From: Breznakia sp. PF5-3
GTDB lineage: Bacteria > Bacillota_I > Bacilli_A > Erysipelotrichales > Erysipelotrichaceae
NCBI RefSeq assembly: GCF_029504745.1
Contig: NZ_JAQFIQ010000014.1
Coordinates: 15,863-47,862 of the forward strand
Length of the DNA: 32,000 nucleotides
Direction of reading: 5' to 3'
The notes beneath the pieces were generated by a model that was not told the origin of the DNA, made no database searches, and worked only from the letters and a program-made list of their open reading frames with translations. This document shows positions 11,570 to 24,873 of this stretch, in pieces (position 1 is the first letter of the stretch; each line of letters begins with the position of its first letter). A program made the position numbers and the translations under genes.

Positions 11570-12313
11570 CTAATGGGTTGTTTTTCTTGTTAAATAATTT
11601 CCTAATGCTTGTATCGCGGTTACGATTAATAAAATAATAATTACTGTAGACCAGGTTGCATCCACTTTACCTCGTGCATATCCATGTCGAATAGCAAATG
11701 CACCTAGACCTCCTCCTCCTACTTGACCAGCCATTGCAGTTAATCCAAGCAATGAAATCAAGGTAATTGATACGGAGCGAATAATACCAGGAATACTCTC
11801 TTTTAAATAAACTCGTGTAATGATTTGCATTGGTGTGTTTCCCATTGCAATACTTGCTTCAATCAATCCATCATCTACTTCTGAAAGTACCGATTCAATT
11901 TGTCTTGCAAAAAATGGAATAGTTCCAAAAATTAAGGGAATATATGTTCCTTTTATACCAGTTGCCGTCCCCATAACCAATCTTGATGCACCAACCAATA
12001 AAGCCATCAAAATAACAAATGGAATAGAACGGAAGAAATTAATAAATTTATCTAAGATAAAATAAATAATTTTGTTTTCCAAAATTCCATCTTTCTTAGT
12101 AACGGTAATAAGAACCCCAAAGATTATTCCAAATATCAATGCAAAGATTCCTGAAAAGAATAACATTTTTAATGTCATATATGTTTCTTGTACCAATTCA
12201 CTAATCATTTTAGGATTATTCATAAAATCCATAGGTAGAAATTGTGTAACAACATCAAATATGACAGCTAAGATTGACTCAAAAAAATTTGAAATCATTG
12301 TTCCTATATCCAT
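11570..12313 (-). CDS. metI: Methionine ABC transporter permease
   Basis: Multi-TM BPD-type permease. The ATG overlaps the metN TAA by 1 nt (TAATG), with GGAGGTG upstream. Confidence 0.9.
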   Translation of the reverse strand: MDIGTMISNFFESILAVIFDVVTQFLPMDFMNNPKMISELVQETYMTLKMLFFSGIFALIFGIIFGVLITVTKKDGILENKIIYFILDKFINFFRSIPFVILMALLVGASRLVMGTATGIKGTYIPLIFGTIPFFARQIESVLSEVDDGLIEASIAMGNTPMQIITRVYLKESIPGIIRSVSITLISLLGLTAMAGQVGGGGLGAFAIRHGYARGKVDATWSTVIIILLIVTAIQALGNYLTRKTTH

Positions 12314-13347
12314 TATTTCAACACCTCCACTCCAACACCTTGTCCTTTAATATACGTGATAGCACTTTCTATGTTTGCTTTTTCACCTTTCAGCTTAACC
12401 ACCAAATTTCCAAGTGGACTATTCGCTAGTACTTCAACATTACCAAATATGATATTAAAACTAACATCATATGTTTTCACTAAGTACGTCATCAAAGCTT
12501 CTTTGGTATTGCTAGATGAGTAAACAAGCCGTAACATCGTCTCATCAACATCCAAATCGACAAGCGGATCATTCTTCTCAATCAATTCATAAATCTGATG
12601 AATCGATGTAGTCGTATTAATAAAAGTACGTGTAACTTCACTTTTTGGTTTTGTAAAAATATCTATGATATTTCCTTCTTCTACAATATTTCCATCTTCC
12701 ATGATTGCTACTTTGTTACAAATCGCTTTTACAACTGCCATTTCATGAGTGATGATTACAATTGTTATTTTGAGCTTTTCATTTAAGTTTTTTAGAAGTG
12801 CTAGTATTGATTGTGTTGTTTGAGGATCAAGTGCACTTGTTGCTTCATCACAAAGCAGAATACTAGGATCATTAGCCAAAGCTCTTGCAATTGCAACTCT
12901 TTGCTTTTGTCCTCCACTAAGCTGTGATGGATATGCTTTCTTCTTGTCCTTTAATTCTACTAATTCCAATAATTCATCAACCTTCTTATTTATTTGCTCT
13001 TTACTTAAACCACTTCCCTTTAGCGGAAAAGCGATGTTTTGAGCAACAGTTCTAGATCTCATCAAATTGAAATGTTGAAATATCATTCCTATTTTCTTCC
13101 GTTCTGCACGTAAATCCCGTGCACTCAAATCCATTAAATTTTTACCATCAATTACTACTTCACCCTCGGTTGGACGTTCTAATAAATTAATACAACGAAT
13201 TAAAGTACTTTTTCCAGCACCACTGAATCCAATGACACCAAATATATCTTTCTCCTCTATATGTAAGGATGCTTTTCTTACTGCATGTACATCATTTTCT
13301 TTGGTCTTAAATATTTTTGTGATATTCACTAATTGGATTTTACTCAC
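12313..13347 (-). CDS. metN: Methionine ABC transporter ATPase
   Basis: Walker A GFSGAGKST, LSGGQKQR signature, Walker B ILLCDEATSALD, and a C-terminal NIL/ACT-like domain. GTG start at 13347 lies 7 nt after GGAGG; the track ORF is over-extended. Confidence 0.9.
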   Translation of the reverse strand: MSKIQLVNITKIFKTKENDVHAVRKASLHIEEKDIFGVIGFSGAGKSTLIRCINLLERPTEGEVVIDGKNLMDLSARDLRAERKKIGMIFQHFNLMRSRTVAQNIAFPLKGSGLSKEQINKKVDELLELVELKDKKKAYPSQLSGGQKQRVAIARALANDPSILLCDEATSALDPQTTQSILALLKNLNEKLKITIVIITHEMAVVKAICNKVAIMEDGNIVEEGNIIDIFTKPKSEVTRTFINTTTSIHQIYELIEKNDPLVDLDVDETMLRLVYSSSNTKEALMTYLVKTYDVSFNIIFGNVEVLANSPLGNLVVKLKGEKANIESAITYIKGQGVGVEVLK

Positions 13348-13365
13348 ACTTCCACCTCCTATAAA

Positions 13366-13626
13366 ATAAAAAAACATTCTCCCAAAGGACGAATGCATCG
13401 TGTTACCACCTTAATTTACTAATATATTACTATATTAGCCTCTTCGAGTACTATCATACTCTATCACAATAACGGGTGAACCCGACATAATCTAAAGAAC
13501 TCTCATTCAATTATGTAACTCCAAGACCATTTTCGATAAACTACTAACCTTATCCATTTTCACCATACTGGACTCTCTAAGAAGGATTTCATAAATGTAC
13601 TCTTCTCTTCATCGTTTTTAATTTAT
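13366..13626 (-). promoter_or_regulatory. T-box riboswitch leader, probable Met (AUG) specifier
   Basis: On the minus strand: Stem I start CGAUGAAGAGAAGAGUA, an AGAGAG element, and a distal UCCA...GGUGAAAAUGGA loop. The candidate specifier is GA-AUG-A (AUG = 13506-13504). The T-box sequence AAUUAAGGUGGUAACACG is followed by a terminator stem and a U7 tract. Confidence 0.8.
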
Positions 13627-13632
13627 ATGCAC

Positions 13633-13661
13633 ATGATACCCATTATTTCCCATCTTGTCAA
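13633..13661 (-). promoter_or_regulatory. Promoter of the T-box-metNIQ transcript
   Basis: On the minus strand: TTGACA (13661-13656), 17 nt spacer, TATCAT (13638-13633). Confidence 0.6.
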
Positions 13662-13708
13662 TATACAAATTTGAAATTTATGAGATAATATTGTCTAAGA
13701 GGTATATT

Positions 13709-14446
13709 ATGTTTGAAAAATTAAAAGCAAAATTTAAGAAAAAACCATTAATATTATGCATTCATGGATTTGGACACAGAAGATCTACAGAGTATAATAA
13801 TTTCAAATTATGGGGTGAAGATACATATGAATTCATCACTTTTGACATTTTTGATGATCAAGATGATAATGATACAAATGCGTCTATTTGGATTGAACGT
13901 TGCGAAAAGGAATTAGAAAAACTATTGCCTTTACAACGAGATATTTATATCATTGGTTTTTCTATGGGAGGTGTTTTAGCATCTTATCTAGCCAGTAAAT
14001 ACAATGTGAAAAAACTATTTTTAATTGCTCCTGCATTTGAATTTATTAGTCTGCGAAGTGTTGTCGATACAATTATGAAAATTATCAATAACCAACCATC
14101 TGAATTAACCATGTCAAACAAACAAGTATCTTGCTTTATGGAAGTTGTTGATCGATGTAAAGACGATATCAATCTCGTTTTATGTCCTACACTAATTGTT
14201 CATGGTGATAATGATCAAGTAATCCCTCTAAGAAGTAGTATAAATGCATACAACAAAATCCAGCATGATAAAAAGCGATTAATTATTTTGCATGAAGGTC
14301 CACATCGACTAATGCTAGATAAAAAAACAAACAATGAAGTATACCAATTATTTTCACTATTTATGCAAGATAAACTAATTACCTATACACCACAGATTGC
14401 TGAAGATCCATATAAAAAAATAGAGGATAAAGTCCAAAAAGGCTAA
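13709..14446 (+). CDS. Alpha/beta-fold hydrolase (esterase/lipase-like)
   Basis: HGFG oxyanion region, GFSMGG nucleophile elbow, and a late HGDNDQ...H pattern. ATG at 13709 follows AAGAGG. Confidence 0.75.
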   Translation: MFEKLKAKFKKKPLILCIHGFGHRRSTEYNNFKLWGEDTYEFITFDIFDDQDDNDTNASIWIERCEKELEKLLPLQRDIYIIGFSMGGVLASYLASKYNVKKLFLIAPAFEFISLRSVVDTIMKIINNQPSELTMSNKQVSCFMEVVDRCKDDINLVLCPTLIVHGDNDQVIPLRSSINAYNKIQHDKKRLIILHEGPHRLMLDKKTNNEVYQLFSLFMQDKLITYTPQIAEDPYKKIEDKVQKG

Positions 14447-17324: not shown

Positions 17325-17561
17325 CTACTTTGGACTATTATAGTATTCGCTTAAAGTGAGTTCATCACCTAAAAAAATATAATCTATTGGTATATTATAT
17401 AGTTTTGCAAGTTTTTTTAAATCTATACCATTTGGAATACTTCTACCACTTTCCCAATTTTTGATCGTTCGCTCTGTTTTTCCAACGATTTTTGCTACAT
17501 CTTTTATTTTCAAATTAGCATTTACTCGACAGGCTTTTAACGTCATCATAAATTCTTCCAT
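17325..17561 (-). CDS. XRE/Cro-type helix-turn-helix regulator
   Basis: HTH_3 pattern (LKIKDVAKIVGKTERTIKNWESGRSIPN...LAKLYNIPIDYIF). AAGGAGGG RBS. Confidence 0.85.
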   Translation of the reverse strand: MEEFMMTLKACRVNANLKIKDVAKIVGKTERTIKNWESGRSIPNGIDLKKLAKLYNIPIDYIFLGDELTLSEYYNSPK

Positions 17562-17597
17562 CCACTACCCTCCTTTACTTTAATTTTATTATAATCG

Positions 17598-17640
17598 TTT
17601 AAAGTGAGTTGTCAAATTATCGGAAATGATTTTCACTTTA
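17598..17640. promoter_or_regulatory. Candidate operator sites in the divergent promoter region
   Basis: TTTAAAGTGAGTT (17598-17610) and the inverted TCACTTTA (17633-17640). A third copy, CGCTTAAAGTGAGTT, lies at 17348-17362. The first site sits in the spacer of the minus-strand TTGACA-N16-TATAAT promoter. Confidence 0.5.
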
Positions 17641-18855: not shown

Positions 18856-18983
18856 ATTATAAGTTAATATTCTTTTCATAATGGTAATCATATTATTTTT
18901 TATCTTTCGTTTATAATAGTTTTAAATTATAAATTTTATATTTTGGACTATACTAAATTTAGAGAACATGATAAAATATAAGT

Positions 18984-19085
18984 GGCTAAAAATAGCCAGT
19001 CTCTTTATATGGATGTTTGATATTCTCACTTATTATAATCAAACATCTTTCTCTCTTCGACATACAATTTTGTATGTCGTTTTAT
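18984..19085 (+). ncRNA. Candidate small RNA (about 100 nt), three hairpins with a CU-rich linker
   Basis: Extended -10 TGaTAAAAT (18969-18977). Hairpins are TGGCTA-AAAA-TAGCCA (18983-18998) and GATGTTTGAT/ATCAAACATC (19012-19047). The single-stranded linker is TTTCTCTCTT. The terminator is CGACATACAA-TT-TTGTATGTCG (19058-19079) plus TTTTATT. No plausible ORF. Confidence 0.35.
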
Positions 19086-19089
19086 TATT

Positions 19090-19178
19090 ATAAAAAAAGA
19101 GCCTTACGGCTCTATAATTTTTAAGGGTGTAAAACAAGGTAGGAAGATAGGAAAGGGATATTTACACCTTGTTTTACT
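19090..19178 (-). ncRNA. Candidate small RNA (about 86 nt) with a CU-rich 25-nt hairpin loop
   Basis: On the minus strand: TTTACA (19211-19206), 16 nt spacer, TGcTATAAT (-10 at 19189-19184). A 12-bp stem (19177-19166 / 19140-19129) carries the loop GUAAAUAUCCCUUUCCUAUCUUCCU. The terminator is AGAGCC-GUAA-GGCUCU (19113-19098) plus U7. No ORF. Confidence 0.4.
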
Positions 19179-19489
19179 ATATCATTATAGCATAAATGTA
19201 TTTTATGTAAACTAAAATGTTCATTTAAAATGAAGTATTAAAATGAAAGTGTGAATATCGAGTTTATATAATGCTATGAAGCTTTAAATTATACTTCCTT
19301 TTATATGAAAATTGCTTCGTTTATCGCTTTATTTTATAAATAATATAGTTATTAATCCAACCATATAACGATATAATTATCTTGTGTTTAACACTTATAA
19401 TCTGTTGTTTTTTTATCAGACCAACAATCACATAATAATATATTTTAATAACTAAAGTCTTGTGATAAAATAAAAAAAAGAGGTATCTT

Positions 19490-20074
19490 ATGAAAGACAA
19501 AATAATCGTGCCAGATGCTGTCCTTTGCAACTGTTACCAAGAACGAAAAACCAATATACACCCTAGTGATTATATCGTTTTCGATACAGAGACTACTGGA
19601 CTTTCTCCAACCCATAATCGAGTTATTGAAATTGGAGCAATCAAATATCATAATTATGAAAAAATTGAAGAATTTAATCAATTGATCAATCCTGAAGAAT
19701 CAATTTCTTCTTTCATCACCAATCTAACTGGCATTCGTAATGAAGATCTTATAGACAAACCGACAATAAAAAGTGTCTTACTCGATTTTTACGAGTTTAT
19801 TGAAGATTATACATTAGTAGCTCACAATGCTTCCTATGATGTTAAAATGCTTGCTGGTGAAGCACACCGATGTCAGCTTGACCTATTTCCTAATATGGTG
19901 ATTGACACTGTACCATTAGCACGCAAAACAATACCTAAACCATTGATTGAAAATCATCGTTTAGAAACGCTTAAAAACTATTTTGGACTTGTCAACAACT
20001 CGCATCGCGCTATTGATGATTGCGAAACATGTAACACCGTTTATCAATACTATTGTGAACAACAAAGCAAATAA
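19490..20074 (+). CDS. DEDDh 3'-5' exonuclease (DnaQ/PolC-exonuclease-like), stand-alone
   Basis: ExoI VFDTETTG, ExoII LVAHNASYDVKML, ExoIII HRAIDDCE. AAGAGG RBS. Confidence 0.85.
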   Translation: MKDKIIVPDAVLCNCYQERKTNIHPSDYIVFDTETTGLSPTHNRVIEIGAIKYHNYEKIEEFNQLINPEESISSFITNLTGIRNEDLIDKPTIKSVLLDFYEFIEDYTLVAHNASYDVKMLAGEAHRCQLDLFPNMVIDTVPLARKTIPKPLIENHRLETLKNYFGLVNNSHRAIDDCETCNTVYQYYCEQQSK

Positions 20075-20112
20075 AAAAACAATCTATGGAGGGAATTATA
20101 GATTGTTTTTTT
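20073..20112. terminator. Bidirectional terminator
   Basis: ACAATCTAT / ATAGATTGT stem (20079-20087 / 20098-20106), flanked by A6 upstream and T7 downstream. Confidence 0.75.
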
Positions 20113-20174
20113 CATTTGTCCTTCCCGATTCTTCCAATTAGCCCTTTCCTTTACCCCGATATATTAATATAACG

Positions 20175-20420
20175 CCTTTCCAACTTCCTTTTCCCTTTCC
20201 TTCTTCCTTTACTACCTTTCCAACTTCCTTTTTCTCTTTCCTTCTTCCTTTACTACCTTTCCAACTTCCTTTTTTCCTTTCCTTCTTCCATTAATTACCT
20301 TTCCAGCTTCCTTTTTTCCTTTCCTTCTTCCATTAATTACCTTTCCAACTTCCTTTTTCTCTTTCCTTCTTCCTTTATTGCCTTCCCAGCTTCCTTTTTC
20401 TTTCCATCTTCCATTTCTTG
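20175..20420. repeat. Six tandem 40-42-nt polypyrimidine(+)/polypurine(-) non-coding repeats
   Basis: Units run 20175-20214, 20215-20255, 20256-20297, 20298-20339, 20340-20380 and 20381-20420. Consensus is CCTTTCCAACTTCC-T4-6-CCTTTCCTTCTTCC-(TTTACTA/ATTAATTA). A degenerate copy lies at about 20120-20160. Confidence 0.95.
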
Positions 20421-20811
20421 GATAAATTAGATCTCCATCCTATCTTACATAAACCTTACAGTTATCTAGTTTATCCCAAAAACTAATTTAACTACTCTTC
20501 TATATCCCATAATCACCTTACCCTATAATTTTAGTAGGAATTAAAATTAATTTTTTATCCACCTCCTTGGTGGACTGTAAAATTAAATTAAATAAGTGAT
20601 TATTCTTCCTTGGCATCCCTGCCTACGCATATACTATCATATCGGAGTAGCAATGCAACTTAAATGCCTATTTTTTTAGTAGGAATTTGTAAATCCCTAT
20701 AAATAAGCTTTATTTTGATTTTTTATAGGCTTTTTTATGTCTACATTTCATAGTGTAGACCATATTTGTTAATTTCAAATAAATCCATTGTTAAGAAAGT
20801 GTTAATTTAAA

Positions 20812-20842
20812 TAAAAAAACGAATAGTTTTACTATCCGATTT
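20812..20842 (-). terminator. Terminator after the LiaF-like gene
   Basis: On the minus strand: CGGATAGT-AAA-ACTATTCG followed by T7. Confidence 0.65.
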
Positions 20843-21574
20843 TTAAATGTAGATAATTTCAATTGAACCTAAAGTTACAGACCCTCGGATTTCAACAAGC
20901 GGTCCGTTTTTATCAATATTATTATAGCGATATTTTTCTTCTGCAGCACCTAGTGTTGTAGAAACATTATTTATTACATTCCAATCTCTTGGAATATATA
21001 ACTCAATTGAACCTAATTCACAATGAACTTCAATATCCAAACCAGATTCACATGGAATAGCGTGATCAAAATATACCTGTAAAGAACCCAATGAACAACT
21101 TAATTTCGCTTTTTGTAAATTATTAGAGTGTAAATATTGAGAACTTGATGAACATGAAGATCTACAATTCACTACATCATCATCCTGGCTCATACTCTCT
21201 TGTCGTTCTCCTCTATTTTTGTAATTATGATGCTCATGATATGAATAATTCCCTCTATATGAATAATCACTTTTAAAAATAATCGATAATCCCACGCTTG
21301 CAAATGCACCAGCTATCATAAGTGGGAAAAATTGGATATGTTGTTCTATATTCAAAATATCTTTATTAATCCAAAACGCCCAAACAAGTGGCATCACAAC
21401 AAGAAACCAATTTCTTCTAAAGATACTAGAAACAGCTATAATAATTAGAAATGCTGTGAAAATCAATCTGAAAACATTTATTTCAAAATAATCAAATTGT
21501 CCCAAAATAATCATTGCTCCTGCACATAGAAAGAACAACCCCCAAAAAATATTTTTACTTTTCATTTTATTCAC
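20843..21574 (-). CDS. Membrane protein with a LiaF-like beta-rich C-terminal domain; likely partner of the LytTR regulator
   Basis: Four N-terminal TM helices. The C-terminus has repeated LGSxxV/LGSIELYIP/LGSIEIIYI strands, as in LiaF/DUF2154-type domains. Overlaps the upstream LytTR gene by 8 nt. Confidence 0.55.
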   Translation of the reverse strand: MNKMKSKNIFWGLFFLCAGAMIILGQFDYFEINVFRLIFTAFLIIIAVSSIFRRNWFLVVMPLVWAFWINKDILNIEQHIQFFPLMIAGAFASVGLSIIFKSDYSYRGNYSYHEHHNYKNRGERQESMSQDDDVVNCRSSCSSSSQYLHSNNLQKAKLSCSLGSLQVYFDHAIPCESGLDIEVHCELGSIELYIPRDWNVINNVSTTLGAAEEKYRYNNIDKNGPLVEIRGSVTLGSIEIIYI

Positions 21575-22022
21575 TCCTCCCTTGAAGTCTAAACTTCAAT
21601 GTCTTATAATACATTCTTGATACGTAAACTTCTTTGTAACTATTTCGAAACTGCACCTTACTGGAGGCAGTCAAATTTCGTTGTATAGAATATATATGAT
21701 GAACATTTAAAATTGTTGATTTTGATACTCGTAAAAAATTGGATGGCAAATCAGCTTCCAATTCATACAACCTAAGTTTTACTCGATATGCGTCTTCTGC
21801 AGTATGTGCATATACTTCATCTTCACTTGTTTCAAAAAATAAAACCGTCTCTAACGGGAAGTAAAATTCATCACTTCCTTTATAAAAAACTATGTTCATC
21901 TGTGGAGATGCATGAGCTGTTATATATTGCTGTATTTTTTGAATATGCTCATCAATGTTTTTACATTTGATAATCACAACTTCTTCATCATCATTATCTA
22001 TTAATTCAATATGTACTTTCAT
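21567..22022 (-). CDS. Stand-alone LytTR-domain DNA-binding protein (no receiver domain)
   Basis: LytTR pattern: VLFFETSEDEVYAHTAEDAYRVKLRLYELEADLPSNFLRVSKSTILNVHHI. AAGGAGATGAG RBS. Confidence 0.8.
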   Translation of the reverse strand: MKVHIELIDNDDEEVVIIKCKNIDEHIQKIQQYITAHASPQMNIVFYKGSDEFYFPLETVLFFETSEDEVYAHTAEDAYRVKLRLYELEADLPSNFLRVSKSTILNVHHIYSIQRNLTASSKVQFRNSYKEVYVSRMYYKTLKFRLQGRSE

Positions 22023-22079: not shown

Positions 22080-22109
22080 CTAAGTGGTTATGTTTTTAAA
22101 GTAAGTGGA
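22080..22109 (-). promoter_or_regulatory. Candidate LytTR box: two 9-bp direct repeats separated by 12 bp
   Basis: On the minus strand: TCCACTTAC (22109-22101), 12 nt, ACCACTTAG (22088-22080). They lie 32 nt upstream of TATAAT (22047-22042) of the LytTR gene. Confidence 0.5.
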
Positions 22110-22122
22110 TAAAAAAGAAAAT

Positions 22123-22382: not shown

Positions 22383-22805
22383 TTAAGCGTTTTTCATTTC
22401 TCCATGATAGTTTTCTAAAGCAAGTAATAAACTATCAATGCTTTCCTCTGATAATACTTCTTCCAGTATTTCACTAAAATAGGCCTTTCCTTCCTTAGCT
22501 AAGCGCCTTCCTTCTTCGGTTGCCTTAATATAAACTACTCGCTTATCTGTTGTAGATACTTCTTTTCCAATTAACTCTCTTTTTTCTAGTTTCTTCAAAT
22601 CTGCAGATATATTCGTAGCTGCTCTACCGACCAAAGTAGCCAAACTATTAAGTGTAAGCAAATCGTTTTCACATACAAGATTCAAAATTTCTAAATTTCG
22701 ATAGTTTATCCCATTTGCTTCATAGTATGGAACCATTTCTTCTAGCCACGCACTATTAATATCCTTTATTAACTTTTCACATTTTAATACTTTCTCAATT
22801 TTCAT
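22383..22805 (-). CDS. MarR family transcriptional regulator
   Basis: Winged-helix block LNSLATLVGRAATNISADLKKLEKRELIGKEVSTTDKRVVYIKATEEGRRL. Confidence 0.85.
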   Translation of the reverse strand: MKIEKVLKCEKLIKDINSAWLEEMVPYYEANGINYRNLEILNLVCENDLLTLNSLATLVGRAATNISADLKKLEKRELIGKEVSTTDKRVVYIKATEEGRRLAKEGKAYFSEILEEVLSEESIDSLLLALENYHGEMKNA

Positions 22806-24796: not shown

Positions 24797-24873
24797 TGGG
24801 GCGACCGATGGGATTTGAACCCACGCATGACGGGACCACAACCCGCTGTGTTAACCGCTTCACCACGATCGCC
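24797..24873 (-). tRNA. tRNA-His (anticodon GUG), with encoded G-1 and CCA
   Basis: Minus strand reads G-GCGATCG...TTGTGGT anticodon loop...GGTTCAAATCC T-loop...CGGTCGC-C-CCA. The extra 5' G opposite C73 is typical of tRNA-His. Confidence 0.9.

What the first reader, a model, noticed from the sequence alone, without database searches (positions are those of the whole stretch)
20175..20420. Six tandem ~41-nt strand-pure pyrimidine/purine repeats with a 14-nt sub-motif phased every ~20.5 bp
Directly visible: head-to-tail units of 40, 41, 42, 42, 41 and 40 nt, plus a decayed copy at about 20120-20160. The plus strand is almost exclusively C/T, so the minus strand reads GGAAAGG / AGGAAG / GGAAGAAGG. 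Unit lengths are not multiples of 3 and no ORF of 60 aa or more crosses the array, so it is non-coding and is not a protein repeat. Each unit holds two copies of CCTTTCC-NN-CTTCC spaced 19-22 nt apart. That gives about 12 motif copies at roughly two helical turns, all on one face of the helix. I do not recognise this as any known element. Three hypotheses fit. (i) A minus-strand RNA carrying an array of SD-like/GGA motifs could act as a sponge for an sRNA, a GGA-binding protein or 30S subunits. (ii) A plus-strand RNA could act as a multi-copy anti-SD mimic. (iii) At the DNA level it could be an iteron-like binding array or an H-DNA-prone polypurine tract.
Basis: partly seen in the sequence, partly recalled or inferred. 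Interest (0 to 1): 0.72.

Follow-up and report, generated by a model that had tools for sequence, protein, structure and literature searches.

The report
Tandem decoy sites for neighbouring small RNA
The repeat array is real, and its purine-rich strand carries about a dozen copies of a sequence complementary to the invariant loop of a previously undescribed small RNA encoded 1 kb away, so it most likely works as a multi-site RNA sponge whose size differs between strains.

Summary
There are six head-to-tail units of about 41 nt at 20175-20415 (TRF 5.8 copies, 90% match). The plus strand is 88% pyrimidine. The motif CCTTTCC-NN-CTTCC occurs 12 times at 18-22 nt spacing, against 0.12 expected.

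The genome is an unclassified Breznakia (Erysipelotrichia). The array has no Rfam, phage, plasmid or other-genome homologue. Copy number varies between near-identical strains (6 units versus about 1.5).

One kilobase away, on the minus strand (19177->19092), lies a small RNA gene conserved in seven Breznakia lineages. It has an 11/12 extended -10 promoter, a 13-bp stem, an invariant 23-nt CU-rich loop and a terminator. The loop sequence TCCCTTTCCT[A]TCTTCCT equals the array motif at 17 of 18 positions. The array's minus-strand RNA therefore offers 13-14 sites complementary to that loop, at -18 to -27 kcal/mol. None of 300 composition-matched shuffled loops comes close.

The array sits between a promoter-bearing module and a bidirectional terminator. 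That module is homologous to a well-defined minus-strand RNA gene in a B. blatticola-like genome, which also carries loop-complementary sites.

Best reading (confidence about 0.5): an amplified-site sRNA sponge. Transcription and binding are inferred, not shown. Main rival: a neutral minisatellite.

The parts
20175..20415 (-). Six tandem ~41-nt units, which are 12 half-units of about 20.5 nt. On the minus-strand RNA each half-unit reads GGAAG-NN-GGAAAGG and is complementary to the sRNA loop.
   Evidence: TRF; motif count 12 against 0.12 expected; half-unit alignment with invariant CTT.CC..CTTCC; duplex energies of -18 to -27 kcal/mol per site.
20120..20157 (-). Decayed copy: two degenerate half-units that are still predicted to pair with the sRNA loop (-18.0 and -18.8 kcal/mol).
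   Evidence: Sequence; 3-mismatch hit at 20143; duplex list.
20073..20112 (.). Bidirectional intrinsic terminator (A7-stem-loop-stem-T7). It is the ancestral terminator shared by the exonuclease gene and the LiaF operon, and the predicted 3' end of the array-bearing minus-strand RNA.
   Evidence: 15-nt perfect inverted repeat I1; hairpin in the fold; orthologous hairpin is the only spacer between the convergent genes in L020 and closes the RNA gene in L156.
20420..20478 (-). 13-bp-stem hairpin immediately 5' of the array on the minus-strand RNA. Its loop contains AAGAUAGGA, a 9-nt complement of the sRNA loop.
   Evidence: Predicted in both folds; duplex -15.7 kcal/mol.
20592..20709 (-). Module A: the CCTACTAAA...TAGG hairpin, the promoter-like site TTGCAT-16-TGaTAGTAT (20658->20631) and the 5' region of the candidate sponge transcript. 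It is homologous to the promoter and 5' end of the L156 RNA gene and to module B of L017.
   Evidence: Promoter scan; alignment A7; nhmmer E=2e-24 for the window, 4e-23 for both L017 module B and L156, and 2e-18 for L017 module A.
20522..20687 (.). Junction direct repeats CCTAT(A/T)(A/T)TTTTTAGTAGGAATT (20522-20542 and 20667-20687) that bound module A. Module gain (L017) and an IS insertion (L001) occur at or next to them.
   Evidence: Repeat family D5; strain comparison.
20820..20838 (-). Lineage-specific terminator of the LiaF-TM gene. It separates the LRS operon from the downstream RNA locus.
   Evidence: Terminator scan.
19092..19177 (-). Conserved small RNA, the partner of the array. It has a 13-bp stem, the 23-nt loop AAAUAUCCCUUUCCUAUCUUCCU, a 16-nt linker and the terminator GAGCC-GUAA-GGCUC-U7.
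   Evidence: Fold z=-6.2; covariance-model hits of 77-111 bits in 7 lineages; loop invariant and terminators diverged but intact; no Rfam match.
19184..19211 (-). Promoter of the small RNA: TTTACA-16-TGcTATAAT (11/12, extended -10).
   Evidence: Promoter scan; conserved in all lineages.

Best explanation
The array is a tandem amplification of a binding site for a genus-conserved small RNA, carried in the 3' half of a minus-strand non-coding transcript.

Proposed mechanism:
1. Transcription starts at the module A promoter (about 20624).
2. It reads through a hairpin and the purine-only, unstructured array.
3. It stops at the bidirectional terminator at 20112-20073, giving an RNA of about 550 nt.
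4. Each ~20.5-nt half-unit (GGAAG-NN-GGAAAGG) pairs with the exposed CU-rich loop (CCCUUUCC-UAU-CUUCC) of the 86-nt sRNA encoded 1 kb downstream on the same strand.
5. One transcript can therefore sequester up to 13-14 sRNA molecules. It would act as a decoy (sponge or anti-sRNA) and relieve the sRNA's mRNA targets.
6. Unequal recombination between half-units changes the number of sites, and so the sponge capacity, between strains.

Shown:
- the repeat structure;
- the sRNA gene and its conservation;
- the sequence-specific complementarity;
- the homology of the upstream module to an RNA gene with a strong promoter and terminator in another species;
- the copy-number polymorphism.

Inferred:
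- that the minus strand is transcribed in this strain;
- that the two RNAs meet and pair in vivo;
- that pairing titrates the sRNA rather than doing nothing;
- that amplification is adaptive.
For: 1. Identity of the array motif and the sRNA loop.
- The best local alignment of the sRNA gene against the whole 767-bp spacer is TCCCTTTCCT[A]TCTTCCT, 17/18 positions.
- CCTTTCC-N3-CTTCC occurs once in the window, exactly in the loop, with 0.00 expected.
- CCTTTCC-N2-CTTCC occurs only in the array.

2. Orientation. The sRNA is sense on the minus strand (promoter and terminator). The array's CT strand is the plus strand, so only the minus-strand array RNA is complementary to the loop.

3. Specificity of pairing.
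- In an RNAduplex scan of both strands of the 32 kb, the array sites are the top non-self hits: -27.7, -21.8, -20.8 and -19.1 to -19.7 kcal/mol, against a background of -4.5 +/- 3.3.
- The real loop gives 14 non-overlapping sites at or below -15 kcal/mol, summing to -277.
- 300 composition-matched shuffled loops give a mean of 1.7 sites (maximum 9) and a best energy of -15.4 +/- 2.6. None of the 300 reaches the observed values.

4. The sRNA is real.
- Fold z=-6.2.
- Present in 7 lineages whose flanking 134-aa protein is only 50-63% identical.
- The loop is 100% invariant, stem changes are all pair-preserving, and terminators have diverged in sequence but are intact.

5. Minus-strand transcription unit.
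- Module A carries TTGCAT-16-TGaTAGTAT.
- It is homologous (nhmmer 78-82 bits) to the L156 gene, which has TTGACA-16-TGgTATTAT (11/12) and an 18-bp terminator. That gene's fold has z=-5.4, and it carries loop-complementary sites: an 11-nt perfect match at its 5' end, plus GGAAGGUAGGAAA.
- Both loci lie directly downstream of the LiaF-TM gene and upstream of the same ancestral terminator.

6. Accessibility. The array is fully unpaired in the predicted fold, and the partner sequence sits in a 23-nt loop.

7. Conservation pattern. The 12 half-units are invariant exactly at the positions that pair (CTT.CC / CTTCC) and vary in the NN and linker positions.

8. Precedent. Firmicute sponges RosA and RsaI use 2-3 G-rich regions against the C-rich seeds of RoxS and RsaE (PMC8216469).
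Against: - There are no expression data for either RNA.
- The module A promoter in this strain is only moderate (8-8.5 of 12). Promoter-like hits in the region are no more frequent than in shuffles.
- The array is absent from the other lineages that keep the sRNA (L020, L022, L154, L161, L164), so it is not needed for sRNA function.
- One near-identical strain has only about 1.5 units and an IS-like insertion between promoter and array. This fits dispensability as well as tuning.
- Pairing at most sites is interrupted by a 2x3 internal loop.
- Plus-strand terminator-like hairpins at 20695-20760 show that plus-strand transcription of part of the spacer is also possible.
- The sequence identity could reflect common descent (a duplicated fragment of the sRNA gene) without any function.
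Confidence: 0.5

Rival explanations
1. Neutral minisatellite. A fragment related to the sRNA loop, or a single pre-existing target site, expanded by slippage or unequal recombination in a poorly constrained spacer between convergent genes. The multi-copy state has no function, and complementarity to the sRNA is a by-product of descent.
For: - The array is absent in other Breznakia lineages. In L020, LiaF and the exonuclease gene are only 19 bp apart.
- Units are about 90% identical, which implies recent expansion.
- A near-identical strain has a 185-186-bp contraction whose breakpoints lie in the CTTTCC cores.
- The same spacer shows module gain and an IS insertion.
- Species-specific non-coding 20-21-nt tandem repeats with a conserved short motif are common in Firmicutes and have no known role (PMC8161180).
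Against: - If the array is transcribed, 13-14 accessible sites of -18 to -27 kcal/mol against an invariant sRNA loop would titrate the sRNA whether or not they were selected for that.
- The array lies inside a locus whose promoter module is conserved across distant lineages.
- The array is identical over 620 bp, with 0 mismatches, in two strain types that differ elsewhere in the spacer.
Confidence: 0.27
2. Plus-strand multi-seed RNA. The CU-rich strand is transcribed, by read-through of the exonuclease terminator or from a weak promoter at 20138-20165, and ends at the plus-strand hairpins at 20695-20760. It would carry 12 copies of the sRNA seed, acting as a super-sRNA or as a competitor for the same GA-rich targets. 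In the same orientation it could also be a very strong Rho-loading (C-rich, G-poor) tract that insulates the convergent LiaF operon.
For: - Terminator-like hairpins on the plus strand at 20739-20760 and at 20695-20730.
- Weak promoter-like site TTAGCC-16-TATATT just upstream of the array.
- The plus strand has 36% C and 1% G, and is unstructured across the array.
- The exonuclease terminator stem is AT-rich.
Against: - No convincing plus-strand promoter.
- The conserved, homologous promoters of modules A and B and of L156 all point the other way.
- The array lacks the stem that presents the seed in the true sRNA.
- Whether Breznakia has Rho was not testable here.
Confidence: 0.08
3. DNA-level protein-binding array. 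Twelve direct repeats about two helical turns apart would act as a multi-site operator or decoy for the adjacent LytTR regulator (these proteins bind 9-bp direct repeats with 12-bp spacers) or for another DNA-binding protein, in an iteron- or centromere-like manner.
For: - The 18-22 bp phasing equals the 20-22 bp period of LytTR sites (PMC6193735).
- The array lies just downstream of an S. mutans-type LytTR/LiaF-TM regulatory system.
- The half-units share the pattern C..CTT with LRS repeats.
Against: - The regulator's own operator is clear and different: TCCACTTAC-12-ACCACTTAG, the only such pair in 32 kb.
- The six units match it at most 6/9 (one 7/9 match lies in the decayed copy at 20133). 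6/9 occurs at 1.8% of all positions in the window.
- The array motif has one extra base between CC and CTT, and C instead of the near-universal A at position 8.
- No rep or par gene is nearby, and there is no plasmid or phage similarity.
Confidence: 0.07
4. General purine-motif sponge. The minus-strand RNA would titrate a GGA-binding protein (CsrA-like) or 30S subunits through SD-like motifs, rather than a specific sRNA.
For: The 241-nt array holds 27 GGA, 21 A(N)GGA, 8 GAAAGG and 9 AAGGAAG motifs.
Against: - The motifs are not presented in hairpin loops, because the array is unpaired.
- No GGAG, GAGG or GGAGG core occurs anywhere in the array, although local genes use canonical AGGAG/GGAGG SD sequences.
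- The sequence-specific match to the sRNA loop (0 of 300 shuffles) is not explained by this model.
- Presence of CsrA in Breznakia was not tested.
Confidence: 0.05

Closest known systems
RosA (B. subtilis) and RsaI (S. aureus): stand-alone sRNA sponges of Firmicutes
   Same: Each is a non-coding RNA with purine/G-rich single-stranded regions complementary to the C-rich seed of a partner sRNA (RoxS/FsrA, RsaE). Each has its own sigma-A promoter and a Rho-independent terminator, and it titrates and destabilises the partner (PMC8216469).
   Different: - RosA and RsaI have 2-3 non-repeated G-rich regions in about 230 nt. Here there are 12-14 sites generated by tandem duplication of a 41-nt unit in an RNA of about 550 nt.
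- Copy number is polymorphic between strains.
- There is no sequence homology or Rfam match.
- The function here is only inferred.
Species-specific non-coding 20-21-nt (and 52-nt) tandem repeats of Bacillus and other bacteria (Subirana & Messeguer 2021)
   Same: Head-to-tail non-coding repeats with a period of about 20-21 nt, a short motif conserved in every repeat, species specificity, and a suggested but untested role as small RNA or sponge.
   Different: - Those repeats form multi-locus families within a genome. This array has no second copy in 32 kb or in any species-representative genome.
- It has a two-level structure (20.5 and 41 nt) and is strand-pure.
- Here a specific RNA partner can be named.
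Eukaryotic multi-site miRNA sponges (e.g. ciRS-7/CDR1as), from the author's own knowledge and not tested here
   Same: Many tandem, imperfectly complementary sites for one small regulatory RNA on a single non-coding transcript.
   Different: Different domain of life, different machinery (Argonaute) and a circular RNA. This is an analogy only.
CsrB/RsmZ-type protein sponges
   Same: A non-coding RNA with many repeated GGA-containing motifs.
   Different: CsrB motifs sit in hairpin loops and bind a protein. Here the motifs are in an unstructured purine tract and match an RNA partner.
LytTR operator direct repeats (AgrA, ComE, HdrR/BrsR)
   Same: Direct repeats with a centre-to-centre distance of about 21 bp.
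   Different: LytTR operators are two repeats just upstream of a -35 element, not twelve. The array sequence does not match the local operator beyond background.

Membership tests
Base-pairing sRNA sponge / anti-sRNA (RosA, RsaI, SroC type) | Sequence complementarity to the seed (target-binding region) of a partner sRNA encoded in the same genome | tested here: met
   17/18 identity of the motif to the loop. 13-14 sites at -18 to -27 kcal/mol; 0 of 300 shuffled loops reach this.
Base-pairing sRNA sponge / anti-sRNA (RosA, RsaI, SroC type) | The complementary strand is transcribed, either as its own unit or as part of another transcript | tested here: inconclusive
   Promoter-like TTGCAT-16-TGaTAGTAT is homologous to a strong promoter in L156, and a downstream terminator is present. 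No expression data are available.
Base-pairing sRNA sponge / anti-sRNA (RosA, RsaI, SroC type) | Binding sites and partner seed are structurally accessible | tested here: met
   The array is unpaired in the MFE and centroid folds. The seed lies in a 23-nt hairpin loop.
Base-pairing sRNA sponge / anti-sRNA (RosA, RsaI, SroC type) | Presence of the sponge lowers the activity or stability of the sRNA and de-represses its targets | not testable with these tools
   Needs genetics, Northern blots or RNA-seq in Breznakia.
Bacterial VNTR / non-coding 20-21-nt tandem repeat class | Head-to-tail non-coding units, a conserved short motif, lineage specificity and copy-number polymorphism | tested here: met
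   Absent from relatives. 6 versus about 1.5 units between strains.
CsrB/RsmZ-type CsrA sponge | GGA motifs presented in the loops of short hairpins | tested here: not met
   27 GGA motifs, but the purine-only tract forms no hairpins.
CsrB/RsmZ-type CsrA sponge | CsrA/RsmA homologue encoded in the genome | not tested
   Only 32 kb of the genome was available, and no genome-wide search was possible.
LytTR-regulator operator | 9-bp direct repeats separated by 11-13 bp | tested here: met
   Half-unit spacing is 18-22 bp, against 20-22 bp in PMC6193735.
LytTR-regulator operator | Repeat sequence matches the cognate regulator's operator (here TCCACTTAC / ACCACTTAG) | tested here: not met
   The best match within the six units is 6/9, which occurs at 1.8% of all window positions (one 7/9 match lies in the decayed copy at 20133). 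The operon site is the only pair in 32 kb.
Plasmid iterons / partition centromere | Adjacent rep or par gene and a plasmid or phage context | tested here: not met
   The neighbours are an RNase_T exonuclease and a LiaF-TM/LytTR pair. The chromosomal synteny is conserved. No plasmid or phage hit.
H-DNA-forming polypurine.polypyrimidine mirror repeat | Uninterrupted R.Y mirror repeat with long arms | tested here: not met
   No pyrimidine mirror repeat with arms of 9 nt or more and a loop of 7 nt or less. The longest seen by eye has 7-nt arms (TTTCCTT-C-TTCCTTT).
Any Rfam family | Covariance-model score at or above the gathering threshold | tested here: not met
   In the window only a T-box and tRNA-His pass. 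Nothing near threshold was found for the array, the sRNA or the L156 gene.

The most novel reading that the evidence does not exclude
A natural bacterial 'tandem-site' RNA sponge. A non-coding transcript would have evolved by minisatellite amplification of one sRNA-binding site into 12-14 sites. Its titration capacity for a genus-conserved CU-loop sRNA would be set, and varied between strains, by repeat copy number, making it a VNTR rheostat for riboregulation. This would also give the first concrete function for the enigmatic class of 20-21-nt non-coding tandem repeats in bacteria.
Probability: 0.35. Interest if true: 0.8.

Novelty: new variant of a known kind. Interest (0 to 1): 0.62.

Why it matters
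Known bacterial sRNA sponges carry one to three binding regions. A transcript with a dozen tandem sites would resemble eukaryotic miRNA sponges, and would show that repeat expansion and contraction can tune post-transcriptional networks between strains.

It would also provide a testable function for the species-specific 20-21-nt tandem repeats catalogued in Firmicutes, whose role is unknown.

Independently of the array, the work uncovers two things in a little-studied insect-gut genus:
- an undescribed, strongly conserved sRNA with an invariant 23-nt CU-rich loop;
- a linked candidate partner RNA locus placed directly behind a LytTR regulatory system.

This yields concrete sequences for Northern, EMSA and deletion experiments.

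Tried and rejected
1. Dispersed repeat family or known satellite. A scan of species-representative genomes with the two-motif pattern gave 14 unrelated hits and no Breznakia. Metagenome and viral scans gave only unrelated R.Y satellites with other periods. There was no phage or plasmid similarity.

2. Origin from, or antisense targeting of, the GA-rich stretch inside the MarR-family gene (22484-22518). The nhmmer E-value was 9, so this was dropped.

3. LytTR binding array. The local operator was found and does not match.

4. 'Gene X' ending in ...LILIPTKIIG in strain L001. This is the end of a multi-copy IS-like element at a contig break, not a gene.

5. H-DNA. No long mirror repeats.

6. Coding repeat. 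No ORF of 60 aa or more, and the unit length is not a multiple of 3.

7. 'The whole 730-bp spacer is a lineage-specific junk insertion.' This was revised after L156 showed a homologous RNA gene at the same position.

8. Paper search for the assembly accession. Nothing found.

Full report
**1. The observation**

The array is real. TRF reports a period-41 array at 20175-20412 with 5.8 copies, 90% matches and score 346. It also reports a higher-order period of about 125.

The units start at 20175, 20215, 20256, 20298, 20340 and 20381. The first five are 40, 41, 42, 42 and 41 nt long, and the last is truncated.

CCTTTCCNNCTTCC with at most 1 mismatch occurs 12 times, only here and only on the plus strand. 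The expectation is 0.12, and 0 of 100 shuffles reach 12. Spacings are 18-22 nt, mean 20.4.

The 241 nt contain T126, C87, A25 and G3. No ORF of 60 aa or more crosses the array.

Alignment of the 12 half-units shows invariant CTT.CC..CTTCC. The two central bases and the linkers vary. Two degenerate half-units lie at 20120-20157.

**2. Context**

Exact protein look-ups identify the organism as an unclassified Breznakia (Erysipelotrichia), in the PF5-3 strain group.

The array lies in a 768-bp spacer between two convergent genes:
- an RNase_T-type exonuclease (19490-20074, plus strand);
- a LiaF-TM membrane protein (20843-21574, minus strand), which follows a receiver-less LytTR regulator (21567-22022, minus strand).

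Upstream of the LytTR gene is TCCACTTAC-12 bp-ACCACTTAG, located 10 bp before a promoter. It is the only such pair in the 32 kb. This matches the operator layout and consensus of S. mutans-type LytTR regulatory systems (PMC6193735).

**3. No homologues and no known family**

- The Rfam gathering search finds only a T-box and tRNA-His in the window. Permissive searches of the spacer give nothing near threshold.
- There is no phage or plasmid similarity.
- A pattern scan of 185,579 species-representative genomes gave 14 unrelated hits and no Breznakia.
- Metagenome and viral hits are unrelated R.Y satellites with other periods.
- An nhmmer profile of the unit finds no other copy in the window or in related loci.

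**4. Strain and species comparison**

- GCA_029504775.1 (L017) has the identical array, with 0 mismatches over 620 bp. It also has an extra 167-bp module in the spacer.
- GCA_029504715.1 (L001) has lost 185-186 bp of the array, with breakpoints in the CTTTCC cores. It also has a multi-copy IS-like element inserted nearby.
- k-mer assemblies break inside the array.
- In a related species (L020, LiaF 60% identical), LiaF and the exonuclease gene are 19 bp apart. They share a hairpin orthologous to 20073-20112.
- In another related species (L022) the exonuclease gene is absent.

The array is therefore young and dispensable across the genus.

**5. The key finding: a conserved sRNA with the same motif**

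While inspecting L022 I saw CCCTTTCCTATCTTCCC inside what looked like an sRNA gene. The window has the same sequence on the minus strand at 19156->19142.

The gene has these features:
- promoter TTTACA-16-TGcTATAAT (11/12, extended -10) at 19211->19184;
- terminator at 19113->19098 followed by T7;
- an 86-nt RNA that folds into a 13-bp stem with a 23-nt loop, AAAUAUCCCUUUCCUAUCUUCCU, with z=-6.2.

A covariance model built from three copies finds it at 77-111 bits in seven lineages. These include B. pachnodae and a B. blatticola-like genome. The flanking 134-aa protein is only 50-63% identical across these lineages.

The loop is invariant. Stem changes are all pair-preserving (A-U to G-U, or G-U to G-C). 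The terminators differ in sequence but all fold. There is no Rfam match.

**6. The link between sRNA and array**

The best local alignment between the sRNA gene and the spacer is loop versus half-unit b1, TCCCTTTCCT[A]TCTTCCT, at 17/18 positions. CCTTTCC-N3-CTTCC occurs once in the window, at the loop, with 0.00 expected.

The sRNA is sense on the minus strand and the array's CT strand is the plus strand. The minus-strand array RNA is therefore complementary to the loop.

RNAduplex over both strands of the window ranks the array sites first after the trivial antisense hit. Values are -27.7, -21.8, -20.8 and -19.1 to -19.7 kcal/mol, against a background of -4.5 +/- 3.3.

With the real loop there are 14 non-overlapping sites at or below -15 kcal/mol. 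With 300 composition-matched shuffled loops the mean is 1.7 sites and the maximum is 9. The best shuffled energy is -15.4 +/- 2.6, against -27.0 observed. None of the 300 reaches the observed values. The complementarity is sequence-specific, not merely purine against pyrimidine.

**7. Which strand is transcribed**

In the B. blatticola-like locus L156, the space between LiaF and the sRNA holds a minus-strand RNA gene with:
- promoter TTGACA-16-TGgTATTAT (11/12);
- an 18-bp terminator homologous to the window's 20073-20112 hairpin;
- a well-folded ~215-nt RNA (z=-5.4).

That RNA starts with CAGGAUAGGAAAGG, an 11-nt perfect complement of the loop. It contains a second site, GGAAGGUAGGAAA.

Its promoter and 5' region are homologous to the window's module A (TTGCAT-16-TGaTAGTAT, 20658->20631) and to L017's module B (TTGATT-16-TGtTATTAT). 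The nhmmer scores are 78-82 bits.

On the window's minus strand no terminator lies between module A and 20112. The array is unpaired in the predicted ~550-nt RNA. The layout and the homology therefore favour a minus-strand transcript that carries the array in its 3' half.

Plus-strand terminator-like hairpins at 20695-20760 leave some plus-strand transcription possible.

**8. Interpretation**

The best-supported model is an sRNA sponge whose binding site has been tandemly amplified. It is analogous in logic to RosA and RsaI in Firmicutes (PMC8216469), but with 12-14 repeat-generated sites and strain-variable copy number.

Descriptively it also belongs to the species-specific non-coding 20-21-nt tandem repeats noted in Bacillus and other bacteria, whose function is unknown (PMC8161180).

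The main rival is that the amplification is neutral. The array is absent from most lineages that keep the sRNA, and it is contracted and IS-disrupted in one strain.

DNA-binding (LytTR), H-DNA, CsrA/30S and iteron readings each failed at least one direct test. No expression or binding data exist, so confidence in the functional claim is about 0.5.

Noticed in passing
window 19092-19211 (-): An undescribed 86-nt sRNA gene with an extended -10 promoter, a 13-bp stem, an invariant 23-nt CU-rich loop and a terminator. It is conserved in seven Breznakia lineages and has no Rfam family.
   Followed up: yes
window 22080-22109 (-), upstream of 21567-22022: TCCACTTAC-12 bp-ACCACTTAG direct repeats lie 10 bp upstream of TAGGAA-16-TATAAT. 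With the receiver-less LytTR protein and the LiaF-TM protein, this is a textbook S. mutans-type LytTR regulatory system with its autoregulatory operator. L022 has ACCTTTCAC-12-ACCACTTAG at the same place.
   Followed up: partly
L156 10560-10811 (-): The B. blatticola-like genome has a ~215-nt minus-strand RNA gene (11/12 promoter, 18-bp terminator, fold z=-5.4) between LiaF and the sRNA. It has an 11-nt perfect complement of the sRNA loop at its 5' end. It also holds a 15-aa ORF (MSSFCLKFIVIPPKH) whose RBS overlaps a second site, so a type-I-toxin-like or small-ORF reading of the locus is not excluded.
   Followed up: partly
L017 5314-5480 (+), corresponding to the window spacer between 20667 and 20687: A near-identical strain carries an extra 167-bp module B with its own strong promoter (TTGATT-16-TGtTATTAT). 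Its 5' hairpin displays AGAUAGGAA. The modules are bounded by the repeat TTTTAGTAGGAATT.
   Followed up: partly
L001 3884-3973 (contig end): In strain GCA_029504715.1 a multi-copy, IS-like sequence starts right after ...ttttagtaggaattaaaattaatt. The same end sequence appears in a partial 'protein' of Breznakia sp. PM6-1. In the same strain the array is contracted to about 1.5 units.
   Followed up: partly
L164 14244-14273 (-), inside CDS 13453-14379: A 16-nt perfect complement of the sRNA loop (GGAAAGGGAUAUUUAC; duplex -31.6 kcal/mol) lies within the coding region of a Beta-lactamase2-family gene. It is a candidate mRNA target of the sRNA in that lineage.
   Followed up: no
window 17545-17600 (-): The ribosome-binding region of the HTH_3 (Xre-type) gene is the best non-array predicted partner of the sRNA loop in the window (-18.8 to -21.1 kcal/mol).
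   Followed up: no
window about 18960-19080 (-); L164 10600-10720 (-): A hairpin-rich non-coding stretch just downstream of the sRNA is nearly identical between distant lineages (hairpins CGACATAC...GTATGTCG, GATGTTTGAT...ATCAAACATC, TGGCTA...TAGCCA). Its function is unknown and there is no Rfam hit.
   Followed up: no
window 20549-20564 (+) and 22101-22116 (-): The 12-mer TTTTTTATCCAC is shared by the distal LytTR operator repeat and by module A (followed there by CTCC instead of TTAC). No second repeat lies 21 bp away in module A, so the significance is unclear.
   Followed up: no
L010 72-158 and L016 3768-3890: Two contigs of a Methanosarcinaceae MAG end in strand-pure 18-nt R.Y tandem arrays (TCCCTCTTCCCTTTCCTT, 99-100% match). 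They are unrelated in sequence period to the Breznakia array.
   Followed up: no
window 13382-13621 (-) and 24797-24872 (-): A T-box leader (112 bits) lies upstream of the ABC-transporter ATPase gene 12313-13398. The second feature is a tRNA-His gene.
   Followed up: no
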